A stretch of 64,000 bases of DNA from a virus. The notes under the pieces were generated by a model. That model was not told the DNA's origin. It searched no databases and saw only the letters and a program-made list of their open reading frames with translations. The first letter of the stretch is position 1, and every line of letters begins with the position of its first letter. Shown here in pieces: positions 49,921 to 62,033 of the stretch. The position numbers and the translations under genes were made by a program. The stretch lies in the IMG/VR virus record IMGVR_UViG_3300050509_000438, positions 14,416 to 78,415 of that record. One strand, written 5' to 3'.

Positions 49921-50520
49921 ATGATTGACATCATCCGCGATGAGCTTACCTCTTCCAGGTATGTGCTCACTGAGTTTATTAAAAACGAAGCCAACCTGCA
50001 GTCCATCCAACGCGCCGCAGACATTATGATCACCTGCCTGAAGAACGGCGGTAAGATCATCGCCTGCGGTAACGGCGGTAGTATGTGCGATGCCATGCAC
50101 TTCGCCTCTGAGCTTACCGGGAAGTACAGGAAAGACAGACCTCCTATTGCTGCGCTGGCAATCGGGGATCCTGCGCATTTGAGTTGTGTGGGGAATGATT
50201 ATGGGTACCGGGAAGTCTTTGGACGATACGTTAAGGCGCACGCAAAGACCGGGGATGTGTTACTGGCGCTAAGCACAAGTGGTAATAGTGATAACATAAT
50301 CATTGCTTCACATGCAATGCACATAAAGCAATGTGCGGTTGTCTACATCACAGGTAATGACAAGAACAGTTTGGTTCATAAGACGGCACTTATTGGTGGA
50401 GGTGACTGCTTGATTGAAATACCTCATTCTGGATCGGCAGATAGAATTCAGGAGGTTGGATTGATTGTTATACATGTTTTGTGTAACTTGATAGAAAAAG
50501 GCATCTATGAAGAAGATTAA
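49921..50520 (+). CDS. gmhA: Phosphoheptose isomerase GmhA (SIS domain)
   Basis: MIDIIRDEL...IQRAADIM...GGKIIACGNGGSMCDAMHFASELTGKYRKDRPPIAALAI.DPAHLSCVGNDYGYREVFGRYV...GDVLLALSTSGNS.N...ADRIQEVGLIVIHVLCNLIE is collinear with E. coli GmhA over its whole length. The track ORF extends 44 codons further upstream (49789). Confidence 0.85.
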   Translation: MIDIIRDELTSSRYVLTEFIKNEANLQSIQRAADIMITCLKNGGKIIACGNGGSMCDAMHFASELTGKYRKDRPPIAALAIGDPAHLSCVGNDYGYREVFGRYVKAHAKTGDVLLALSTSGNSDNIIIASHAMHIKQCAVVYITGNDKNSLVHKTALIGGGDCLIEIPHSGSADRIQEVGLIVIHVLCNLIEKGIYEED

Positions 50521-51217
50521 ATTAACTCATGGAGAATATGCTCTTGTTGATTCTGATGATTCTGATGATTTTGACTTTTTGAGTCAGTATACATGGAGTT
50601 TGTGTATAAACGTAAAAAATAGAACAAACCGATATGCAGCCACAAATATCGCAGGCAAAACCATTCACATGCACCATCTTCTTTTGAAGAAAAAGAGCGG
50701 ATTTGTTAGAGACCATATAGATAAAAATGGACTCAACAATCAACGGAAAAATCTTAGATATCTCACTATCTCTCAAAACAACTTTAATCAAAAGAGAAGA
50801 ACCAATACGCGAACTGGTATCACTGGAGTTTATTTTGAAGATAATTCATATGTAGTTAAAATATCTTTTAAAGGGAAAAACATCCATATAGGTAGATCCA
50901 AATCTCTCATGGTAGCCAAGAAGTTAAGAAAAGATGCAGAGAAAAAATACTATCCGAATATTAAGATTGGTAAGGAAACAGATATTGTGCATTACCCCAA
51001 GCCTCCAAAAATTCCACTGCATGAACGACAACCAAATAAGAATAGAACTTACAAATACAAAGGGGTATATCCACATGCTTTGAAATGGAGAGCAGCAATA
51101 AGTAATGGTAAAAAGGGAATGAAGTACTTAGGATTATACAGCACACAGGAGGAAGCTGCAAAAGTATATATACAAGCATTCAAAGAAAAACATGGAGTGG
51201 CTCCATATTCTATTTGA
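50507..51217 (+). CDS. HNH (HNH_3-type) homing endonuclease with AP2 DNA-binding domains
   Basis: HMHHLLLKKKSGFVRDHIDKNGLNNQRKNLRYLTISQN (HNH_3). TGITGVYFEDNSYVVKISFKGKNIHIGR and YKYKGVYPHALKWRAAISNGKKGMKYLGLYSTQEEAAKVY are AP2 repeats. Visibly AT-rich compared with the flanks. Confidence 0.8.
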   Translation: MKKIKLTHGEYALVDSDDSDDFDFLSQYTWSLCINVKNRTNRYAATNIAGKTIHMHHLLLKKKSGFVRDHIDKNGLNNQRKNLRYLTISQNNFNQKRRTNTRTGITGVYFEDNSYVVKISFKGKNIHIGRSKSLMVAKKLRKDAEKKYYPNIKIGKETDIVHYPKPPKIPLHERQPNKNRTYKYKGVYPHALKWRAAISNGKKGMKYLGLYSTQEEAAKVYIQAFKEKHGVAPYSI

Positions 51218-56940: not shown

Positions 56941-57773
56941 AACTCCTTCATCATTTTATCAACCAAATAAACCAATCCTTCCTGAAATTGAAAATCCCAC
57001 CCATTGGGTCCGATCGGCTGCACATTCGGCGCGAAGTCACAGACTTCCAGGAGACGATGCGACTTTAACCCTTCAGCGATCGCGTAGCACATACTCTGGT
57101 TACCGATAAAAAACTTGCAGCACTTGATGGCGATCGCAAGCTCAAGGAAGTTATCCACGACCAGCAAAGGTAACTCAAATCCCCAATCCTTCTGGAACTT
57201 CTCGTGTTCCTGCGGCAGCCCACAGAACATCAGTTGCTCCTTGTATTTCTCCATGAACCAGTAGGTCAGGTACGGCTTGTTGTAGCGCGAGGTGCGGTTG
57301 ATGAGAACTTTCTGATTGGCTTTGTTGTGGTACCATGATGGGAAATTATGCCACGGCACATGCAACCATGGCTTACTCAAATCGCACTGCGTATCCGGGT
57401 AGCAGAACCCGAGCCATCGGTGGATTGAGCCGTAGGGCATGCCGATGAATTTGGTCCTGTGAACATCGAGATCTACAACGATCTCCTCTCCCTTCCAGAT
57501 GTTGAAGCTATTAACGTATGCCTGGGCCTCGATAAGGGGCTTCATCATGTCGTAGGCATGCTGCGGAAACATGGACTCATAAGGATGCTCTGCGCCCTGG
57601 TAATAGAACGCCTTCTGGTCAAGCCACATGTAGATGTCGGCCTTGGCGCCCAGGTTCTCGCAGGCGGTTTTGACGGCGGGGAGGAACGAGATCAGGTCGC
57701 CTGAAGGACCCGATGACTTGAATGATATGGTTTTCATTTCCATGTTCTGTTTGATAGCACAGATCTGATACAA
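56937..57773 (-). CDS. GT-B glycosyltransferase, GT9-like (second heptosyltransferase candidate)
   Basis: ISFKSSGPSGDLISFLPAVK (N-terminal GT9-like) and CKFFIGNQSMCYAIAEGLKSHRLLE (the f-I-G-n-D-S-G...A-x-A-l-g pattern). Weaker than in 54200-55618. Confidence 0.4.
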   Translation of the reverse strand: MYQICAIKQNMEMKTISFKSSGPSGDLISFLPAVKTACENLGAKADIYMWLDQKAFYYQGAEHPYESMFPQHAYDMMKPLIEAQAYVNSFNIWKGEEIVVDLDVHRTKFIGMPYGSIHRWLGFCYPDTQCDLSKPWLHVPWHNFPSWYHNKANQKVLINRTSRYNKPYLTYWFMEKYKEQLMFCGLPQEHEKFQKDWGFELPLLVVDNFLELAIAIKCCKFFIGNQSMCYAIAEGLKSHRLLEVCDFAPNVQPIGPNGWDFQFQEGLVYLVDKMMKEL

Positions 57774-58351
57774 CGCCGTGATACACTATACATAGAAGCT
57801 AATTTGTTTTGAGAAATAAGCCCCTTATTGGCTCGTATTTCTCGCACATCCCATTCTGTTAATTTAGCTACTCTACTATTTCTGATGTTCACCTTTCTAA
57901 TCACCCACCTAACATTACCTGGCTCATAATTCCCATCGTTATTAATCCGATCAATATCAAGTCCAGGAATATAATCTTCAATGGTATCATTATAGAAATT
58001 AGTAAAGCTTTGCATCCAACGATCACACACTTTTATTCCTCTGCCACCGTAAATGTGATATGATTTATGTTTTGGGTTATTAACCCTTTGCTTCATGCTG
58101 TTCCATACTTTTTTCAGAGAATGATTCTTGATTCTCTGCTTTTGATTTTTACACCCACAACTGGTTTTTCGACCAGAAAGTAAATATGAGGATGGGATAG
58201 AGACAGCTGCCCCACAGATACAAAAACATGTCCATGCAGGCATCCTGCGAATAGTACCCGATCTGGAACCAACCTTTAGATGGCCAAATGTCTGATCCTT
58301 CAAGTCTTTTAATTGCCCCATAAAATGCCTATCTTCGTATTTCATGCACAA
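57734..58351 (-). CDS. Homing-endonuclease-like protein (HNH-type, phage family)
   Basis: WTCFCICGAAVSIPSSYLLSGRKTSCGC...HKSYHIYGGRGIKVCDRW...GLDIDRINNDGNYEPGNVRWV is a pattern I recognise from free-standing phage HNH endonucleases. AT-rich. Confidence 0.55.
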   Translation of the reverse strand: MCMKYEDRHFMGQLKDLKDQTFGHLKVGSRSGTIRRMPAWTCFCICGAAVSIPSSYLLSGRKTSCGCKNQKQRIKNHSLKKVWNSMKQRVNNPKHKSYHIYGGRGIKVCDRWMQSFTNFYNDTIEDYIPGLDIDRINNDGNYEPGNVRWVIRKVNIRNSRVAKLTEWDVREIRANKGLISQNKLASMYSVSRRCIRSVLSNRTWK

Positions 58352-58727: not shown

Positions 58728-59066
58728 ATGAGAGACCCACAAGAAATTGCAACAGTTGAGCCTAAGTCAACTTACAGAATTCCTACGTACAAAGTTACCA
58801 ATGAAGGATTGGTAGATGGTGATGGATGCGCATTGGACTTCTGCAAAGGCAATAAAGAAGATGAATCTGTTCCACGTCAGGAAGGTGTTTTTACTGAAAC
58901 CCTGATCGCCGCCGCAAAAAAATATCTCGAAGAGAACAACGTCGGAGACCTTGCTACACGCGAGACCTCAATGGCTATTACCAAGCTTGATGAAGCGCTG
59001 CTCTGGATCGGTAAGCGCGCCGCAGATCGGCAGAGACGTGGTGTACAAGGCACTTACCAGAAATGA
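58728..59066 (+). CDS. Hypothetical protein
   Basis: 112-aa ORF with a conserved-looking C-terminal helix (SMAITKLDEALLWIGKRAADRQRRGVQGT). Confidence 0.55.
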   Translation: MRDPQEIATVEPKSTYRIPTYKVTNEGLVDGDGCALDFCKGNKEDESVPRQEGVFTETLIAAAKKYLEENNVGDLATRETSMAITKLDEALLWIGKRAADRQRRGVQGTYQK

Positions 59067-59554: not shown

Positions 59555-59708
59555 GAAGGATCGGCAGCTCGAGATCATGAGCGAGTTCAATACCACTTAT
59601 ATGAAGGAGATCGTATACTGGCGCGAAGATGCCGGTAAAAAGAAGAAGCAAAGAAATCTGCTGGCGGCGTCCGCTGCTATTTTGGTGGGGATTCTGCTGT
59701 TTCGGTAA
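59310..59708 (+). CDS. Overlapping +1-frame ORF: signal-like N-terminus, coiled coil, C-terminal TM
   Basis: MCLSLILTASLSG..., then Q/L/E-rich heptad-like sequence, ending in KKKKQRNLLAASAAILVGILLFR. Confidence 0.45.
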   Translation: MRNVCKTFVMCLSLILTASLSGATQDLLLVDRWRLEMAARELMQKDLQDSLLVQKDSLINTLQQINGTRLSMISSLNGVITEKDRQLEIMSEFNTTYMKEIVYWREDAGKKKKQRNLLAASAAILVGILLFR

Positions 59709-59880
59709 AGAGATTGGTGATCATCTTCCCAAGAGCAGTGACAACTGCTGCCCCAATAACCCAGCCTTTATCGACCTCCATGCCTGCAAATGTCGCGGTG
59801 AGTGTTGTACCCATGATCAGGATCGAGTCTCCCAGCTTGCGCCACGCTGGCGGTGTCGGTGAGTAGTAATTCTTCATCAT
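59677..59880 (-). CDS. Small membrane protein (holin-like) downstream of endolysin candidate
   Basis: Start at ATG 59880, forming an ATGA overlap with the endolysin-like stop. MMKNYYSPTPPAWRKLGDSILIMGTTLTATFAGMEVDKGWVIGAAVVTALGKMITNLF has two hydrophobic helices. Confidence 0.45.
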   Translation of the reverse strand: MMKNYYSPTPPAWRKLGDSILIMGTTLTATFAGMEVDKGWVIGAAVVTALGKMITNLFTETAESPPK

Positions 59881-60479
59881 ATCATTTGATCTTCGTTGAA
59901 TAATGCGTAGGAAAAAGGCTTGGCATAAAACTCCCATGACCGGGCACCAACATTGTACCATACAGCATGCTCCTTGTCGTCCTGTAGCACCTGGCATCCT
60001 GCTGAGAATGCACCGACCTTCTCCACGTTCGTATCGTGACGAGTAGTGTGTCCGTTGACTCCTTGAGAGTCTTTATAAATCTTCCCTGTGAGGTCGAGCA
60101 CGCCATCAGAATCGAAATCACGATAGCCTGAGAATACCCCAGGACCTGACTGAACCATAGCCGCGTATTTGCCATTATGCAGCCCCGGCTTCCAGCATCC
60201 AGCATGGAACCCGGCAGCAACAATGAACGTGCCTTTGTCGTTACCGAGCTTATCCTTGAGGTACACCAGTCCGGGCTTGGTAGTGCCTTTAAAGATCAGG
60301 CAGTGCTTATTAAGAAACACATCACACCAGGCAACGCCGATCAGATCATTGAACTCATTGACCGTTGTATCCTTCGACCGGATTCCGAAGTAGTTCACTT
60401 CATATTTACCGGTAAGGAATGGATACTTGTTGTCAGAATATTTATCCTGAATGAGCGCGTAGGTGATGGTTGTGTTCAT
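59877..60479 (-). CDS. Cell-wall hydrolase (endolysin) candidate
   Basis: 200 aa. GTTKPG...FIVAAGFHAGCWKPGLHNGKYAAMVQ...YRDFDSDGVLD...GVNGHTTRHD...FSAGCQVL is a pattern I associate with phage peptidoglycan peptidases (unverified). Flanked by small membrane proteins. Confidence 0.4.
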   Translation of the reverse strand: MNTTITYALIQDKYSDNKYPFLTGKYEVNYFGIRSKDTTVNEFNDLIGVAWCDVFLNKHCLIFKGTTKPGLVYLKDKLGNDKGTFIVAAGFHAGCWKPGLHNGKYAAMVQSGPGVFSGYRDFDSDGVLDLTGKIYKDSQGVNGHTTRHDTNVEKVGAFSAGCQVLQDDKEHAVWYNVGARSWEFYAKPFSYALFNEDQMI

Positions 60480-60883
60480 GCTTCAATTATAGTGGCCAGT
60501 ACAAATCCTGTTTGATCCTCGTAGAATGGCTCAAGGCTGATCTTGATGCTGAACTCTGTCTTGTCTTTTTTAAGACCACGGAGCGACATATCCGTAGTGC
60601 CCATGTTTCTGAACTTAGGGATCTTACTGTAATTAGAAAGATGCGCGTCGTGGCGTGCTCGATACTCTTCCGGCATCAGGTCCGTTATTTTCTTCCCCTC
60701 TATTTCATTGTAGATGTAGCCGAATATATCGTTGATGCGCTTGGAGGCAAAAACGATTAGCCCGGTGGTCATCTCCACTACAATGCAGGGGGCCTGATCG
60801 AGGATCTTCTCATGGATCGTGTTCCTGTCTCCATGAACAAGTTTGAACTTCAGGTCAGCGAGACGTTGTTTGATGTCATCCAT
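60476..60883 (-). CDS. Stand-alone PAS domain protein, FixL (heme-PAS) like
   Basis: ILDQAPCIVVEMTTGLIVFASKRINDIFGYIYNEIEGKKITDLMPEEYRARHDAHLSNY...LRGLKKDKTEFSIKISLEPF is collinear with the FixL heme-PAS (ILMPEPDRSRHDSYISRY...TGKRRDGTTFPMHLSIGEM), including the position of the proximal His. Confidence 0.7.
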   Translation of the reverse strand: MDDIKQRLADLKFKLVHGDRNTIHEKILDQAPCIVVEMTTGLIVFASKRINDIFGYIYNEIEGKKITDLMPEEYRARHDAHLSNYSKIPKFRNMGTTDMSLRGLKKDKTEFSIKISLEPFYEDQTGFVLATIIEA

Positions 60884-61109
60884 TTTGTTTGAAGAAAAAT
60901 CCTATCGCTGCACTTGCCACGATTGCCAGCACTCCGAAGAGTACCCATACCTTTACTTCCATGGCTGACATTCTCGATTCAAGCTTATTGACCTTCTCAT
61001 TTCGGGCGAGCTCAAGTTTTATCTGCTCAATATCTTTCTTTACTTCTTCGACTTTACCAGAGAGATTCGATATCGCTCCTATGATCTGCTTAGCGTCCAC
61101 CGTTGTCAC
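60876..61109 (-). CDS. Small coiled-coil protein with C-terminal TM helix
   Basis: 77 aa ending in VWVLFGVLAIVASAAIGFFF. Confidence 0.45.
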   Translation of the reverse strand: MTTVDAKQIIGAISNLSGKVEEVKKDIEQIKLELARNEKVNKLESRMSAMEVKVWVLFGVLAIVASAAIGFFFKQNG

Positions 61110-61365
61110 GCTTAGCGCCTATTTTCTGCATGAATGAAAAAGCGTTCTTCAGGAACACATTCTCCTGAGCAATGAAGTCATCAAGCTTGCTGTTCATGCC
61201 AGACTGCATGAGTTTGATCTCTTGCAGATCGGACTGCATGTTCTGCAGGTTGAGCGAGTTGATCCGAACCTCTTCCTTGTTCTGGTAATGGCCAACGGAG
61301 AGCCAGATACACCAGCTACCGAAGATTCCAATCACAACAATCAGGGGTACCGTTAGTCCTTCCAT
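61090..61365 (-). CDS. Small protein with N-terminal TM helix
   Basis: 91 aa starting with LTVPLIVVIGIFGSWCIWLSV. Confidence 0.45.
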   Translation of the reverse strand: MEGLTVPLIVVIGIFGSWCIWLSVGHYQNKEEVRINSLNLQNMQSDLQEIKLMQSGMNSKLDDFIAQENVFLKNAFSFMQKIGAKRDNGGR

Positions 61366-61748
61366 GTAAGTATTTTGTTTAAAGCAAAAGGAATCAGTAT
61401 AAAAAACCGCAGGTTGGTCACATTTACATGCAGGTGATGGCTGCCGAAGTAAAGTGTGAACCAGGGATAGTTGTAATTGAAAAAGAACTCGATCACCTCG
61501 GCCAGTTGAATGATGAATGCAACAGCAAAGAACCGTTTGAGCCTATCGGCATACCACCATAGCACTGAGATAAAGATCATGATCTGGGTATGGCAGCAGA
61601 GTATCCAAATGAAAGAATCCCACCTGATAGCCATTTCTGGGGCAAATGGGAATGGTGTTATTGCCACCTCTGGCCAGTTCACCCAGGTCCAGCATTCTTC
61701 AATGACTACCGCCGTGCAGAAGAGGCCGATGATGATGCGCTCTTTCAA
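61353..61748 (-). CDS. Multi-pass membrane protein (holin-class candidate)
   Basis: 131 aa with 3-4 hydrophobic helices. Upstream of the endolysin cluster. Confidence 0.45.
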   Translation of the reverse strand: MKERIIIGLFCTAVVIEECWTWVNWPEVAITPFPFAPEMAIRWDSFIWILCCHTQIMIFISVLWWYADRLKRFFAVAFIIQLAEVIEFFFNYNYPWFTLYFGSHHLHVNVTNLRFFILIPFALNKILTWKD

Positions 61749-61826
61749 GGCTTCCCGGGTGGCGGTGGGGGATTAGCAGGGTTGGTGGCATCCTGTGTTT
61801 TCGGATCCGCCGGCTTCGGCTTGGGT

Positions 61827-62033
61827 TTAGCCTTCGTTGTCTTCTTGGAATTCTTTGCCATGGAGTTTATTATTTAGGGTGTCAATCTCACGCTTGTAAT
61901 ATTTGATCTCATTTTGCAGATTTTCATTCTGTTCGCGCTCCTGCTGTCGTTTACGTCGCTCTTTTTTTGCCCTGTAGGTGAGGATCGTAAACCAAACTCC
62001 CATTACACCGATGAATGCAATGAGGACTGCCAC
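61827..62033 (-). CDS. Small N-terminal-TM protein
   Basis: 68 aa: MAVLIAFIGVMGVWFTILTY followed by a K/E/R-rich tail. Confidence 0.45.
   Translation of the reverse strand: MAVLIAFIGVMGVWFTILTYRAKKERRKRQQEREQNENLQNEIKYYKREIDTLNNKLHGKEFQEDNEG

What the first reader, a model, noticed from the sequence alone, without database searches (positions are those of the whole stretch)
60476..60883. Stand-alone FixL-like (heme-type) PAS sensor embedded in the lysis gene cluster
Seen: the 135-aa protein is essentially one PAS domain. The segment DLMPEEYRARHDAHLSNY...GTTDMSLRGLKKDKTEFSIKISLEPF aligns residue for residue with the heme-PAS of rhizobial FixL (ILMPEPDRSRHDSYISRY...GIGRIVTGKRRDGTTFPMHLSIGEM). 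The alignment includes the His that is the proximal heme ligand in FixL. There is no output domain. The gene sits between an endolysin candidate (59877-60479) and four small membrane proteins (60876-62033).

Inference: this may be a phage-encoded ligand/O2/redox sensor that acts by protein-protein interaction to gate lysis timing or another late function. Stand-alone PAS proteins in phage lysis cassettes are not something I know to be described.
Basis: partly seen in the sequence, partly recalled or inferred. Interest (0 to 1): 0.65.

Follow-up and report, generated by a model that had tools for sequence, protein, structure and literature searches.

The report
Heme-type PAS sensor in phage lysis cassette
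A small phage protein that looks like a heme-binding sensor domain is always encoded with a tiny membrane-anchored partner inside the genes that burst the host cell, which suggests these phages may time lysis by sensing the cell's redox or gas state.

Summary
ORF 60476-60883(-) encodes a 135-aa stand-alone PAS protein: an N-terminal helix plus the PAS core, with no output domain. By sequence and predicted fold, its nearest solved relatives are all heme-b PAS domains (FG214, FixL, EcDOS/DosP). The His aligned to the FixL proximal ligand is invariant across the family.

It is not a FixL-style O2 switch. FixL Arg220 and Arg206 are replaced, and the pocket matches the hexacoordinate redox/ligand switch FG214. 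The equivalents of FG214 His156, Pro167, Arg170, Met172 and Gly173 are invariant. Distal His175 is kept in sister clades but is Thr in the window.

The new finding is context. In all 27 related loci, PAS is start/stop-overlapped with a 60-91-aa C-tail-anchored membrane protein. Searching with that partner always recovers PAS. The pair sits in otherwise mosaic lysis cassettes whose hydrolase varies (GH25, CHAP, Amidase_3, DUF5675, or the window's 200-aa protein with no PDB fold match).

The phage is a tailed dsDNA phage, probably of Bacteroidota. Most likely the pair is a heme-based sensor plus membrane anchor that modulates lysis timing. Heme binding and the lysis role are inferred, not shown. 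I found no description of this in the literature searched.

The parts
60476..60883 (-). Stand-alone heme-type PAS protein, 135 aa. It has an N-cap helix (residues 2-16), a second helix (22-28) and a PAS core (33-134). Candidate heme ligands are H78 (proximal) and M94 (distal).
   Evidence: Pfam PAS_9 and PAS are above gathering score. All PDB sequence hits at E<=0.01 are heme-PAS domains. Foldseek ranks 1-34 are all heme-PAS domains. H78, P89, R92, M94 and G95 are invariant in the family and identical in FG214. Synonymous sites are saturated (pS 0.7-0.93) against pN 0.15-0.34.
60876..61109 (-). C-tail-anchored membrane protein, 77 aa. Residues 1-50 are soluble and coiled-coil-like, with a single TM at about 54-72 and a 5-residue tail. 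It is the obligate partner gene of PAS, and its stop lies inside PAS codons 2-3 (ATGGATGA).
   Evidence: Hydropathy. The homologous family is present immediately upstream of PAS in all loci. Reciprocal searches with this protein always recover PAS.
59877..60479 (-). 200-aa protein in the endolysin slot. Its start overlaps the PAS stop (ATGA). It is a candidate peptidoglycan hydrolase whose fold has no match in the PDB.
   Evidence: phrog_3000 4e-19 and phrog_33083 'endolysin' 2e-7. The same position holds GH25, CHAP+PG_binding_1, Amidase_3 or DUF5675 in sister loci. The AF2 model has pLDDT 95.7 but no PDB fold match. Invariant residues H101, D121, H144, S159 and C162.
61090..61365 (-). 91-aa protein with an N-terminal TM (residues 6-24) and a coiled-coil-like C-terminal part. 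It is a member of the lysis cassette.
   Evidence: It overlaps both flanking genes. No family was assigned.
61353..61748 (-). 131-aa protein with at least three TM segments and a conserved 'PFPF' motif (cluster C2). It is the best holin candidate of the cassette.
   Evidence: Hydropathy. Homologs occur in 7 of 12 loci. No Pfam or PHROG match.
61745..61861 (-). 38-aa Lys/Pro-rich micro-ORF (MAKNSKKTTKAKPKPKPADPKTQDATNPANPPPPPGKP), cluster C5.
   Evidence: It is conserved in at least five diverged loci, always just upstream of the membrane-protein genes.
61827..62033 (-). 68-aa protein with an N-terminal TM (residues 1-19) and a charged coiled-coil tail. It is the first gene of the cassette.
   Evidence: It has weak PHROG matches to holin and Rz-like spanin families (phrog_1350 1.8e-4, phrog_9841 1.5e-3).
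59677..59880 (-). Possible 67-aa ORF (MMKNYYSP...) with two moderately hydrophobic segments. Its ATG overlaps the stop of the 200-aa gene (ATGA).
   Evidence: Read directly from the sequence. Confidence is low, and it was not seen to be conserved in other loci.

Best explanation
The 135-aa protein is a cytoplasmic, stand-alone heme-b PAS sensor of the FG214/FixL/EcDOS class. Heme iron would be held by His78 on the F-helix, with Met94 of the FG loop as the likely sixth ligand. Sister clades also keep the FG214-type distal His at position 97.

It is co-translated with a C-tail-anchored inner-membrane protein encoded immediately upstream, and most likely docks on it. That partner's coiled-coil N-terminus faces the cytoplasm. 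Together the two form a conserved two-gene sensor-plus-anchor module inside otherwise mosaic lysis cassettes of Bacteroidota-type tailed phages.

Proposed mechanism: a change in heme redox or ligand state (reduction, or displacement of the distal ligand by O2, NO or CO) would rearrange the FG loop and the oligomeric state, as shown for FG214. That change would be passed through the membrane partner to holin triggering. The module would therefore act as an antiholin or holin modulator that ties lysis time to the respiratory or redox state of the infected cell.

Shown here: PAS fold, heme-PAS class resemblance, invariant ligand residues, purifying selection, obligate gene pairing, and lysis-cassette location.

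Inferred: heme binding, PAS-partner contact, and the effect on lysis.
For: Class:
- The profile of 46 family members hits only heme-PAS chains in the PDB at E<=0.01: 10jx/FG214 5.6e-13, RmFixL 3e-10, BjFixL about 1e-5, EcDOS/DosP about 1e-3.
- Foldseek ranks 1-34 are all heme-PAS. LOV and other PAS domains appear only below them.

Ligands:
- H78, P89, R92, M94 and G95 are invariant over the extended family and identical to FG214 H156, P167, R170, M172 and G173.
- The FG214 paper shows that H156 is the proximal ligand, H175 the ferric distal ligand, and M172 the distal ligand in dithionite-soaked crystals. It also shows that ligand state drives a monomer-to-dimer switch.

Real gene:
- pS is saturated at 0.7-0.93 against pN 0.15-0.34.
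- The family comprises 48 proteins, and complete members are 133-145 aa with no second domain.

Module:
- The tail-anchored protein lies directly upstream of PAS in all 27 loci held, covering 17 distinct PAS sequences.
- Stop and start overlap.
- Searching with the partner recovers the same four IMG/VR contigs as the PAS search, and PAS is present in every other genuine hit.

Lysis context:
- The adjacent or near-adjacent hydrolase is GH25, CHAP+PG_binding_1, Amidase_3 or DUF5675. DUF5675 is described as a C82-like lysin domain in a preprint.
- Multi-TM holin-like genes lie next to the pair.

Localisation: PAS has no TM segment or signal-like N-terminus.
Against: - No biochemical evidence exists for heme binding in this family. 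The model has only moderate confidence (pLDDT 72.9), and the FG loop is its weakest part.
- The window's own clade lacks the FG214-type distal His (Thr97), and Met99 and Cys33 are not conserved in divergent members. The exact coordination is therefore uncertain.
- The motif H...P-x-x-R-x-M-G is shared by thousands of repeated PAS domains in cellular sensor kinases. Most of these are uncharacterised, so the motif alone does not prove heme binding.
- No PAS positions co-vary with the long or short variant of the partner.
- The partner and PAS match no known holin or antiholin family.
- Gene adjacency in late operons can also reflect morons.
- The window's own 'endolysin' is unproven.
Confidence: 0.45

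Rival explanations
1. The protein is a cofactor-less PAS adaptor. It serves only as a dimerisation or binding module inside the lysis system, for example as a cytoplasmic antiholin like T4 RIII or as a chaperone for the membrane partner. It senses nothing, and the conserved His and Met are structural.
For: Many PAS domains have no cofactor. The partner pairing and lysis-cassette location fit a purely structural role equally well. There is a precedent for a small cytoplasmic antiholin in T4 RIII (PMC8385771).
Against: It is hard to explain why exactly the heme-ligand set of FG214 (His, Pro, Arg, Met, Gly) is invariant while much of the rest varies. It is also hard to explain why only heme-PAS structures are recovered by sequence and lead the ranking by fold.
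Confidence: 0.2
2. The protein is a FixL-like pentacoordinate O2 sensor that binds O2 reversibly at the distal site and reports oxic versus anoxic conditions to the lysis machinery.
For: RmFixL and BjFixL are among the best sequence and fold matches, and the proximal His aligns.
Against: The two arginines of the FixL switch are absent. The column that differs in the R220A entry 1y28 aligns to Met99, and the column that differs in the R206A entry 2cmn aligns to Asn84. The invariant Met, and in sister clades a His, in the FG loop point to hexacoordination as in FG214 and EcDOS.
Confidence: 0.1
3. The module is not a lysis regulator. The PAS plus tail-anchored pair is a moron or accessory module carried in the late region, for example for superinfection exclusion, host-physiology manipulation, or signalling in lysogens. 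It is only co-located with lysis genes.
For: Late-operon ends and lysis regions are common moron sites. Integrases lie near the cassette in L001 and L009, which suggests temperate relatives. In L004 and L005 the pair is separated from the endolysin by five genes.
Against: The pair lies inside or at the edge of the lysis cassette in every locus, despite extensive shuffling of all other components. It is translationally coupled to the hydrolase gene by an ATGA overlap in most loci. In L011 and L024 an HNH gene on the opposite strand splits the cassette, yet leaves partner-PAS-hydrolase contiguous.
Confidence: 0.15
4. The protein is a heme-responsive or heme-sequestering protein. Free heme is itself the signal or cargo, and is bound reversibly, rather than acting as a permanent cofactor that reports gas or redox state.
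For: This reading uses the same ligand residues. Some PAS proteins use heme as a ligand signal; the FlrB PAS domain is cited in the FG214 paper's reference list.
Against: The closest relatives (FG214, FixL, EcDOS) hold heme as a stable prosthetic group. There is no transport or heme-metabolism gene in the cassette.
Confidence: 0.08

Closest known systems
FG214 heme-binding PAS domain (Fimbriimonas ginsengisoli one-component HTH-PAS regulator; PDB 10jx/10jy; bioRxiv 10.64898/2026.03.15.711900)
   Same: It is the best sequence match (8.8e-11 with the single sequence, 5.6e-13 with the profile) and a top fold match. It shares the proximal His (H156=H78), the alternative distal Met (M172=M94) and the P-x-x-R-x-M-G FG-loop motif, all of which are invariant in the phage family. 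Distal His175 is present in about half of the phage clades. The N-terminal helix of the phage protein aligns to the helix preceding the FG214 PAS core.
   Different: FG214 carries an HTH DNA-binding output domain and is a cellular transcription factor. The phage protein has no output domain, has a membrane-anchored partner gene, and sits in a lysis cassette. The window's protein has Thr at the His175 position, and its FG loop is one residue longer.
FixL heme-PAS oxygen sensor (Bradyrhizobium japonicum, Sinorhizobium meliloti)
   Same: The fold is the same, and the proximal His and several pocket-lining positions are aligned (L69/M70/P71, Y85, F111, I115, L117). It is among the top fold hits.
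   Different: Arg220 and Arg206 of the O2 switch are not conserved (Met99 and Asn84). There is no histidine-kinase domain and no FixJ partner. The phage protein is probably hexacoordinate rather than pentacoordinate.
EcDOS/DosP heme-PAS (E. coli)
   Same: It is a heme-b PAS with His/Met hexacoordination in the ferrous state (His77/Met95, from my own knowledge), with the distal Met in the FG loop. It gives significant fold matches (ranks 7, 17, 25-34) and profile matches of about 1e-3.
   Different: DosP has GGDEF/EAL output domains. The Met sits at a different loop register, two residues after the position of M94 by my manual alignment from a remembered sequence.
T4 antiholins RI and RIII (lysis inhibition)
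   Same: They are small non-enzymatic proteins encoded by a phage that delay holin triggering. RI is thought to sense a signal and RIII is cytoplasmic (PMC8385771). This is the functional analogy proposed here.
   Different: There is no sequence or fold relationship: the phage protein matches no PHROG family. RI and RIII have no cofactor and are not PAS domains. The T4 signal is superinfection, not redox or gas. T4 has no tail-anchored adaptor.
Short stand-alone PAS/LOV proteins (e.g. PpSB1-LOV, RsLOV)
   Same: They are single PAS cores with an N-cap helix and no enzymatic output, and they signal through changes in dimerisation. They appear as lower fold hits (ranks 49-50).
   Different: They use a flavin chromophore and sense light, and they are cellular. 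They are not paired with a membrane-anchor gene.

Membership tests
PAS domain superfamily | Match to curated PAS profiles above threshold | tested here: met
   PAS_9 scores 31.1 bits against a gathering score of 27, and PAS scores 30.7 bits against 22.6.
PAS domain superfamily | PAS fold: antiparallel beta-sheet flanked by helices | tested here: met
   The AF2 model has strands at 33-37, 42-46, 101-104, 110-122 and 125-134 and helices at 48-54, 66-69 and 72-87. There are 417 PDB fold matches at E<=0.001, led by PAS domains.
Heme-b PAS sensors (FixL/EcDOS/FG214 class) | Proximal His on the F-helix aligned to the known heme ligand | tested here: met
   H78 aligns to the ligand His of BjFixL, RmFixL and FG214 (H156). 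It is invariant in 46 of 46 family members and in the divergent members.
Heme-b PAS sensors (FixL/EcDOS/FG214 class) | Nearest characterised relatives are heme-binding rather than other PAS types | tested here: met
   All 14 PDB sequences with E<=0.01 are heme-PAS. Foldseek ranks 1-34 are all heme-PAS.
Heme-b PAS sensors (FixL/EcDOS/FG214 class) | Binds heme b (Soret band, loss on mutating the His) | not testable with these tools
   This needs purified protein.
FixL-type O2 sensor | Distal Arg220 (BjFixL) that hydrogen-bonds bound O2, and Arg206 of the switch | tested here: not met
   The column changed in the R220A entry 1y28 aligns to M99. The column changed in 2cmn (R206A) aligns to N84. 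The result is the same in hmmalign.
FixL-type O2 sensor | Covalently linked histidine-kinase output with a FixJ partner | tested here: not met
   The protein ends at residue 135, right after the last PAS strand. No kinase or response regulator was seen in the cassette.
FG214-type hexacoordinate heme-PAS switch | His156 / Met172 / His175 ligand set in the F-helix and FG loop | tested here: inconclusive
   The equivalents of H156 and M172 are invariant. The H175 equivalent (position 97) is His in P0024, P0040-P0042, P0044, P0046, L024, L029, L031, P0127 and P0133. It is Thr in the window and Glu in other clades.
FG214-type hexacoordinate heme-PAS switch | N-terminal HTH DNA-binding domain | tested here: not met
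   Only a 28-residue helical N-cap precedes the PAS core. There is no HTH hit.
Antiholins (T4 RI/RIII, P1 LydB, lambda S107) as a functional class | Encoded within or next to the holin-endolysin cassette | tested here: met
   True in all 27 loci.
Antiholins (T4 RI/RIII, P1 LydB, lambda S107) as a functional class | Homology to a described antiholin family | tested here: not met
   The PAS protein matches no PHROG family at E<=0.1. The partner has only weak coiled-coil matches.
Antiholins (T4 RI/RIII, P1 LydB, lambda S107) as a functional class | Binds the holin and delays triggering | not testable with these tools
   This needs genetics or biochemistry.

The most novel reading that the evidence does not exclude
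Some Bacteroidota phages carry a two-gene lysis-clock input, made of a heme-based redox/gas sensor (a stand-alone PAS) tethered to the inner membrane by a tail-anchored partner. This module gates holin triggering according to the respiratory or redox state of the infected cell. It would be the first cofactor-based sensor domain shown to control phage lysis timing, and the first viral heme-PAS sensor.
Probability: 0.35. Interest if true: 0.85.

Novelty: new variant of a known kind. Interest (0 to 1): 0.68.

Why it matters
Lysis timing sets burst size and phage fitness. The known inputs to the holin clock are few: membrane potential collapse, and superinfection through T4 RI and RIII.

A conserved, cofactor-type sensor domain wired into the lysis cassette would mean that phages read host redox, oxygen or respiratory state directly when deciding when to lyse. 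That is relevant to phage-host dynamics in soils, rhizospheres and sediments where oxygen fluctuates.

It would also give heme-sensor biology a minimal, output-less FixL-class module whose signal must pass through protein-protein contact. It would open the almost uncharacterised lysis systems of Bacteroidota phages, including a candidate lysin with no PDB fold match. And it would provide a compact redox- or gas-responsive lysis switch for synthetic biology.

Tried and rejected
- Searching deposited phage genomes found no PAS homolog by tblastn and no DNA-level relative of the region.
- A scan of 185k reference bacterial and archaeal genomes found no PAS relatives, so host assignment by prophage failed.
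- PHROGs has no family for the PAS protein.
- I tested whether the window's 200-aa neighbour is a diverged DUF5675 or YkuD-like lysin. There was no hmmsearch or BLAST similarity to the DUF5675 proteins of sister loci, no PDB sequence hit and no PDB fold hit despite a pLDDT 95.7 model. I therefore rejected the assumption that it belongs to a known lysin family. Its lysin role rests on position and one PHROG match.
- The combined alignment of both partner variants was too divergent for pattern scanning, so I split it into two alignments.
- The sigma-70 promoter and terminator scan of the cassette was at background level. It is of doubtful relevance anyway for a Bacteroidota host.
- No PAS position discriminates loci with the long partner variant from those with the short one, and between-group PAS identity equals within-group identity. 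There is therefore no co-variation support for a specific contact surface.
- The exhaustive profile search was dominated by summed scores of multi-PAS giants. It added only two new stand-alone cluster representatives (P0127, P0133).
- There are no tRNAs in the window.
Full report
**1. The observation**

- It passes the curated thresholds of Pfam PAS_9 (31.1 bits against 27) and PAS (30.7 bits against 22.6), over residues 27-130.
- A single-sequence search of all PDB chains gives as best hits 10jx (8.8e-11), RmFixL 1d06 (1.5e-9) and BjFixL entries (about 1e-5), with EcDOS/DosP only at non-significant E of 0.4-0.8.
It puts His78 on the FixL heme-ligand His.
- The protein ends directly after the last PAS strand, so it has no output domain.

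**2. What kind of PAS**

I built a 46-member family alignment (A1).
- Its profile hits only 14 distinct PDB sequences at E<=0.01, and every one is a heme-b PAS: FG214 5.6e-13, RmFixL 3e-10, BjFixL about 1e-5, EcDOS/DosP about 1e-3.
- An AlphaFold2 model from the alignment has pLDDT 72.9 and pTM 0.64. It shows an N-terminal helix at 2-16, a helix at 22-28 and a PAS core at 33-134.
- Foldseek against the PDB ranks heme-PAS structures in positions 1-34: BjFixL, RmFixL, FG214 and EcDOS/DosP. ELK-channel PAS, LOV and NifL-FAD PAS domains appear only from rank 35.

PAS domains of many cofactor types are abundant in the PDB, so this ranking is specific evidence for the heme class.

**3. Not a FixL-type O2 switch; closest to FG214**

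PDB 10jx is the heme-binding PAS of FG214, a one-component HTH-PAS regulator of Fimbriimonas ginsengisoli. The paper reports the following (bioRxiv 10.64898/2026.03.15.711900):
- It binds hexacoordinate heme b.
- His156 is the proximal ligand and His175 the ferric distal ligand.
- Met172 is the distal ligand in dithionite-soaked crystals.
- Ligand state drives a monomer-to-dimer switch.

Mapping through the alignments:
- FG214 H156, P167, R170, M172 and G173 correspond to H78, P89, R92, M94 and G95 of the phage protein.
- All five are invariant in the family, including the divergent members L024, L029, P0127 and P0133.
- Position 97, the H175 equivalent, is His in about half of the clades. It is Thr in the window, P0002 and P0030, and Glu in others.
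- M99 and C33 are invariant in A1 but not in the divergent clade.

The two arginines that define the FixL O2 switch are absent. The column that differs between wild-type BjFixL and the R220A entry 1y28 aligns to M99. The column that differs in 2cmn (R206A) aligns to N84.

So the fold and proximal ligand are FixL-like. The distal side resembles the hexacoordinate His/Met or His/His redox and ligand-displacement sensors, FG214 and EcDOS.

**4. The family and its distribution**

- The large protein collection holds 48 relatives. Complete members are 133-145 aa, at 56-98% identity, with no second domain. All come from metagenome assemblies and none is named beyond 'PAS domain S-box'.
- An exhaustive HMM search of 1.84 billion cluster representatives finds 30,300 proteins at E<=0.001. 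Apart from three stand-alone representatives (P0044, P0127, P0133), the top of the list is long multi-PAS sensor proteins with up to 13 repeats.
- Their repeats share the motif L-x-P-x-R-F-R-x-x-H...P-x-x-R-x-M-G...RKDG-x-EF...L-x-P. The phage gene thus derives from a very common cellular PAS subtype, of which FG214 is the first member shown to bind heme.
- No relative occurs in 185,579 reference genomes or in deposited phage genomes. Four occur in IMG/VR.
- Between diverged loci, synonymous sites are saturated (pS 0.7-0.93) while pN is 0.15-0.34. The gene is under purifying selection.

**5. The replicon and host**

- The window is a tailed dsDNA phage with a portal (7e-60), large terminase (4e-40), tail fibre, RecT, primase-polymerase, a methyltransferase and HNH endonucleases.
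- The only cultured-phage relatives of the terminase and portal, at 21-25% identity, infect Flavobacterium, Cellulophaga and Maribacter.
- Homologs of the 200-aa neighbour are mainly in crAss-like and Bacteroides phages and Aureivirga genomes, plus three Pseudoalteromonas phages.
- The host is therefore probably a member of Bacteroidota. This is an inference.

**6. Genomic context: the main new result**

In every related locus the PAS gene lies in a run of small membrane-protein genes next to a cell-wall hydrolase, downstream of tail-fibre or depolymerase-like genes.

The hydrolase family differs between loci:

| Locus | Hydrolase near PAS |
|---|---|
| L009, L010 | Glyco_hydro_25 |
| L001 | CHAP+PG_binding_1 |
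| L002, L031 | Amidase_3 |
| L007, L008, L011, L024-L027, L029, L030 | DUF5675 |
| Window | 200-aa protein with no family assignment |

 DUF5675 is described as a C82-like peptidase lysin domain in bioRxiv 10.64898/2026.04.11.717860.

The other membrane proteins are also mosaic (clusters C2, C7, C9, C10, C12, C13).

One neighbour is constant. The gene immediately upstream of PAS encodes a 60-91-aa protein with a soluble coiled-coil-like N-terminus, a single TM at the extreme C-terminus and a 4-6-residue tail.
- It forms one homologous family, in a long and a short variant differing by a 16-residue indel.
- In most loci its stop codon lies inside PAS codons 2-3 (ATGGATGA).
- In most loci the PAS stop overlaps the next gene's ATG (ATGA).

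The pairing is reciprocal:
- Scanning IMG/VR with the partner recovers exactly the four contigs found with PAS.
- A metagenome scan gives five genuine hits, all with PAS at the partner's stop.
- The large-database search finds 62 partner proteins.
- The ones on contigs absent from the PAS hit list (P0277 on 51 contigs, P0289, P0290, P0315) all have a 135-aa PAS directly downstream.

In total I hold 27 loci with 17 distinct PAS sequences, and all are paired.

Two arrangements show how tightly the unit holds together:
- In L011 and L024 an opposite-strand HNH gene splits the cassette but leaves partner-PAS-hydrolase contiguous.
- In L004 and L005 the pair sits at the 5' end of the cassette, five genes from the hydrolase.

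The invariant unit is therefore partner plus PAS, located in or at the edge of the lysis cassette.

**7. Anatomy in the window (minus strand, 5' to 3')**

| Coordinates | Product |
|---|---|
| 62033-61827 | 68 aa, N-terminal TM plus charged coil; weak holin/spanin PHROG hits |
| 61861-61745 | 38-aa Lys/Pro-rich peptide |
| 61748-61353 | 131 aa, at least three TM, PFPF motif |
| 61365-61090 | 91 aa, N-terminal TM plus coil |
| 61109-60876 | 77-aa tail-anchored partner |
| 60883-60476 | PAS |
| 60479-59877 | 200-aa putative lysin |
| 59880-59677 | possible 67-aa ORF with two hydrophobic segments |

All the genes overlap or abut.

**8. Mechanism**

Shown:
- PAS has no hydrophobic segment or signal-like N-terminus, so it is cytoplasmic.
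- The partner lacks an N-terminal signal, and its TM is at the extreme C-terminus. Its coiled-coil part should therefore face the cytoplasm.
- The two genes are translationally coupled.

Inferred:
- PAS holds heme b through His78, with Met94 (and His97 in sister clades) on the distal side.
- Reduction, or displacement of the distal ligand by a gas, expels or rearranges the FG loop and changes self-association, as in FG214.
- This is relayed through the membrane-anchored partner to the holin. The module would then advance or delay lysis according to the redox or respiratory state of the cell.
- Holin triggering is known to respond to collapse of the membrane potential. This is established knowledge from lambda and T4 work that I did not retrieve here, so a respiration-linked input is biologically plausible.

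I put about 0.7 on heme binding, about 0.9 on membership of the lysis cassette, and about 0.45 on the full model. The rival explanations are listed separately.

**9. Comparison and novelty**

- The domain is a new member of the heme-PAS class.
- The architecture (no output domain, obligate tail-anchored partner gene) and the biological setting (phage lysis cassette) are new as far as I can find.
- Full-text searches for PAS domain with holin, endolysin and phage, for antiholin with PAS domain, for phage-encoded PAS with heme and lysis, and for bacteriophage with heme-PAS returned nothing relevant.
- PAS-fold proteins do exist in viral databases: giant-virus kinases, Agrobacterium phage Atu_ph07, Cellulophaga phages phi19:1 and phi18:3, and several 'PAS domain' ORFs of uncultured phages. 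None is close (at most 26% identity) and none carries any functional annotation in that listing.
- The functional analogy is to antiholins. T4 RI is thought to sense a signal and RIII is cytoplasmic (PMC8385771). There is no homology to either.

**10. Limits**

- Nothing here demonstrates heme binding, partner contact or a lysis phenotype.
- The PAS model is of moderate confidence, and the FG loop is its weakest part.
- The window's own lysin is unproven.
- I found no co-variation between PAS and the partner variants.

Noticed in passing
window 59877-60479 (-): A 200-aa protein sits in the endolysin slot. Its AF2 model is very confident (pLDDT 95.7, pTM 0.91), but it has no PDB fold match (best E 0.95, TM<0.2), no Pfam match and no PDB sequence hit. 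Invariant residues H101, D121, H144, S159 and C162 suggest a Cys/His hydrolase. Homologs occur in crAss-like phages (crAss002 gp5, cr8_1), Bacteroides phages DAC16-23 and SJC03, Pseudoalteromonas P2-like phages and Aureivirga genomes. It is a candidate lysin family whose fold has no match in the PDB.
   Followed up: partly
window 61745-61861 (-); also L002, L003, L006, L009/L010, L011: A conserved 34-40-aa Lys-rich and poly-Pro micro-ORF (MAKKxKKxxKPK...NPPPPPxP) lies inside the lysis cassettes, usually just upstream of the multi-TM protein gene. It may be a cationic membrane-active peptide. I recall a 'disruptin' precedent from memory, but did not check it.
   Followed up: no
window 58728-59066 (+): A 112-aa protein on the opposite strand, just beyond the cassette, matches phrog_2428 (1.6e-15). 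It also has a sub-threshold match to the Acb2/Tad1 hairpin domain (E 0.002, 18.7 bits against a gathering score of 27). It could be an anti-CBASS or anti-Thoeris sponge relative.
   Followed up: no
window 57734-58351 (-) and 50507-51217 (+); L011 5087-5743 (-), L024 2901-3422 (-): HNH homing-endonuclease genes occur in the window (phrog_374 1.3e-51; phrog_99 1.3e-34). In L024 an opposite-strand HNH_3 gene, and in L011 an unannotated opposite-strand 218-aa gene, is inserted within the lysis cassette without separating partner-PAS-hydrolase.
   Followed up: no
L002 9604-10047 (+): A 147-aa protein downstream of the Amidase_3 lysin has a lipoprotein-like N-terminus (LLASC) and a C-terminal TM. 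This is the architecture of a unimolecular spanin and further marks the locus as a lysis cassette.
   Followed up: no
proteins P0049-P0080, e.g. P0088, P0096: Cellular proteins of 1,700-4,500 aa carry up to 13 tandem PAS repeats of the same His...P-x-x-R-x-M-G subtype as FG214. If each repeat binds heme, these would be very large multi-heme sensor arrays. They appear to be uncharacterised.
   Followed up: no
L001 10546-11376 (-), L009 8170-8775 (-): Tyrosine-integrase genes lie within 2-3 kb downstream of the cassette in two relatives, which suggests that at least some phages carrying the module are temperate.
   Followed up: no
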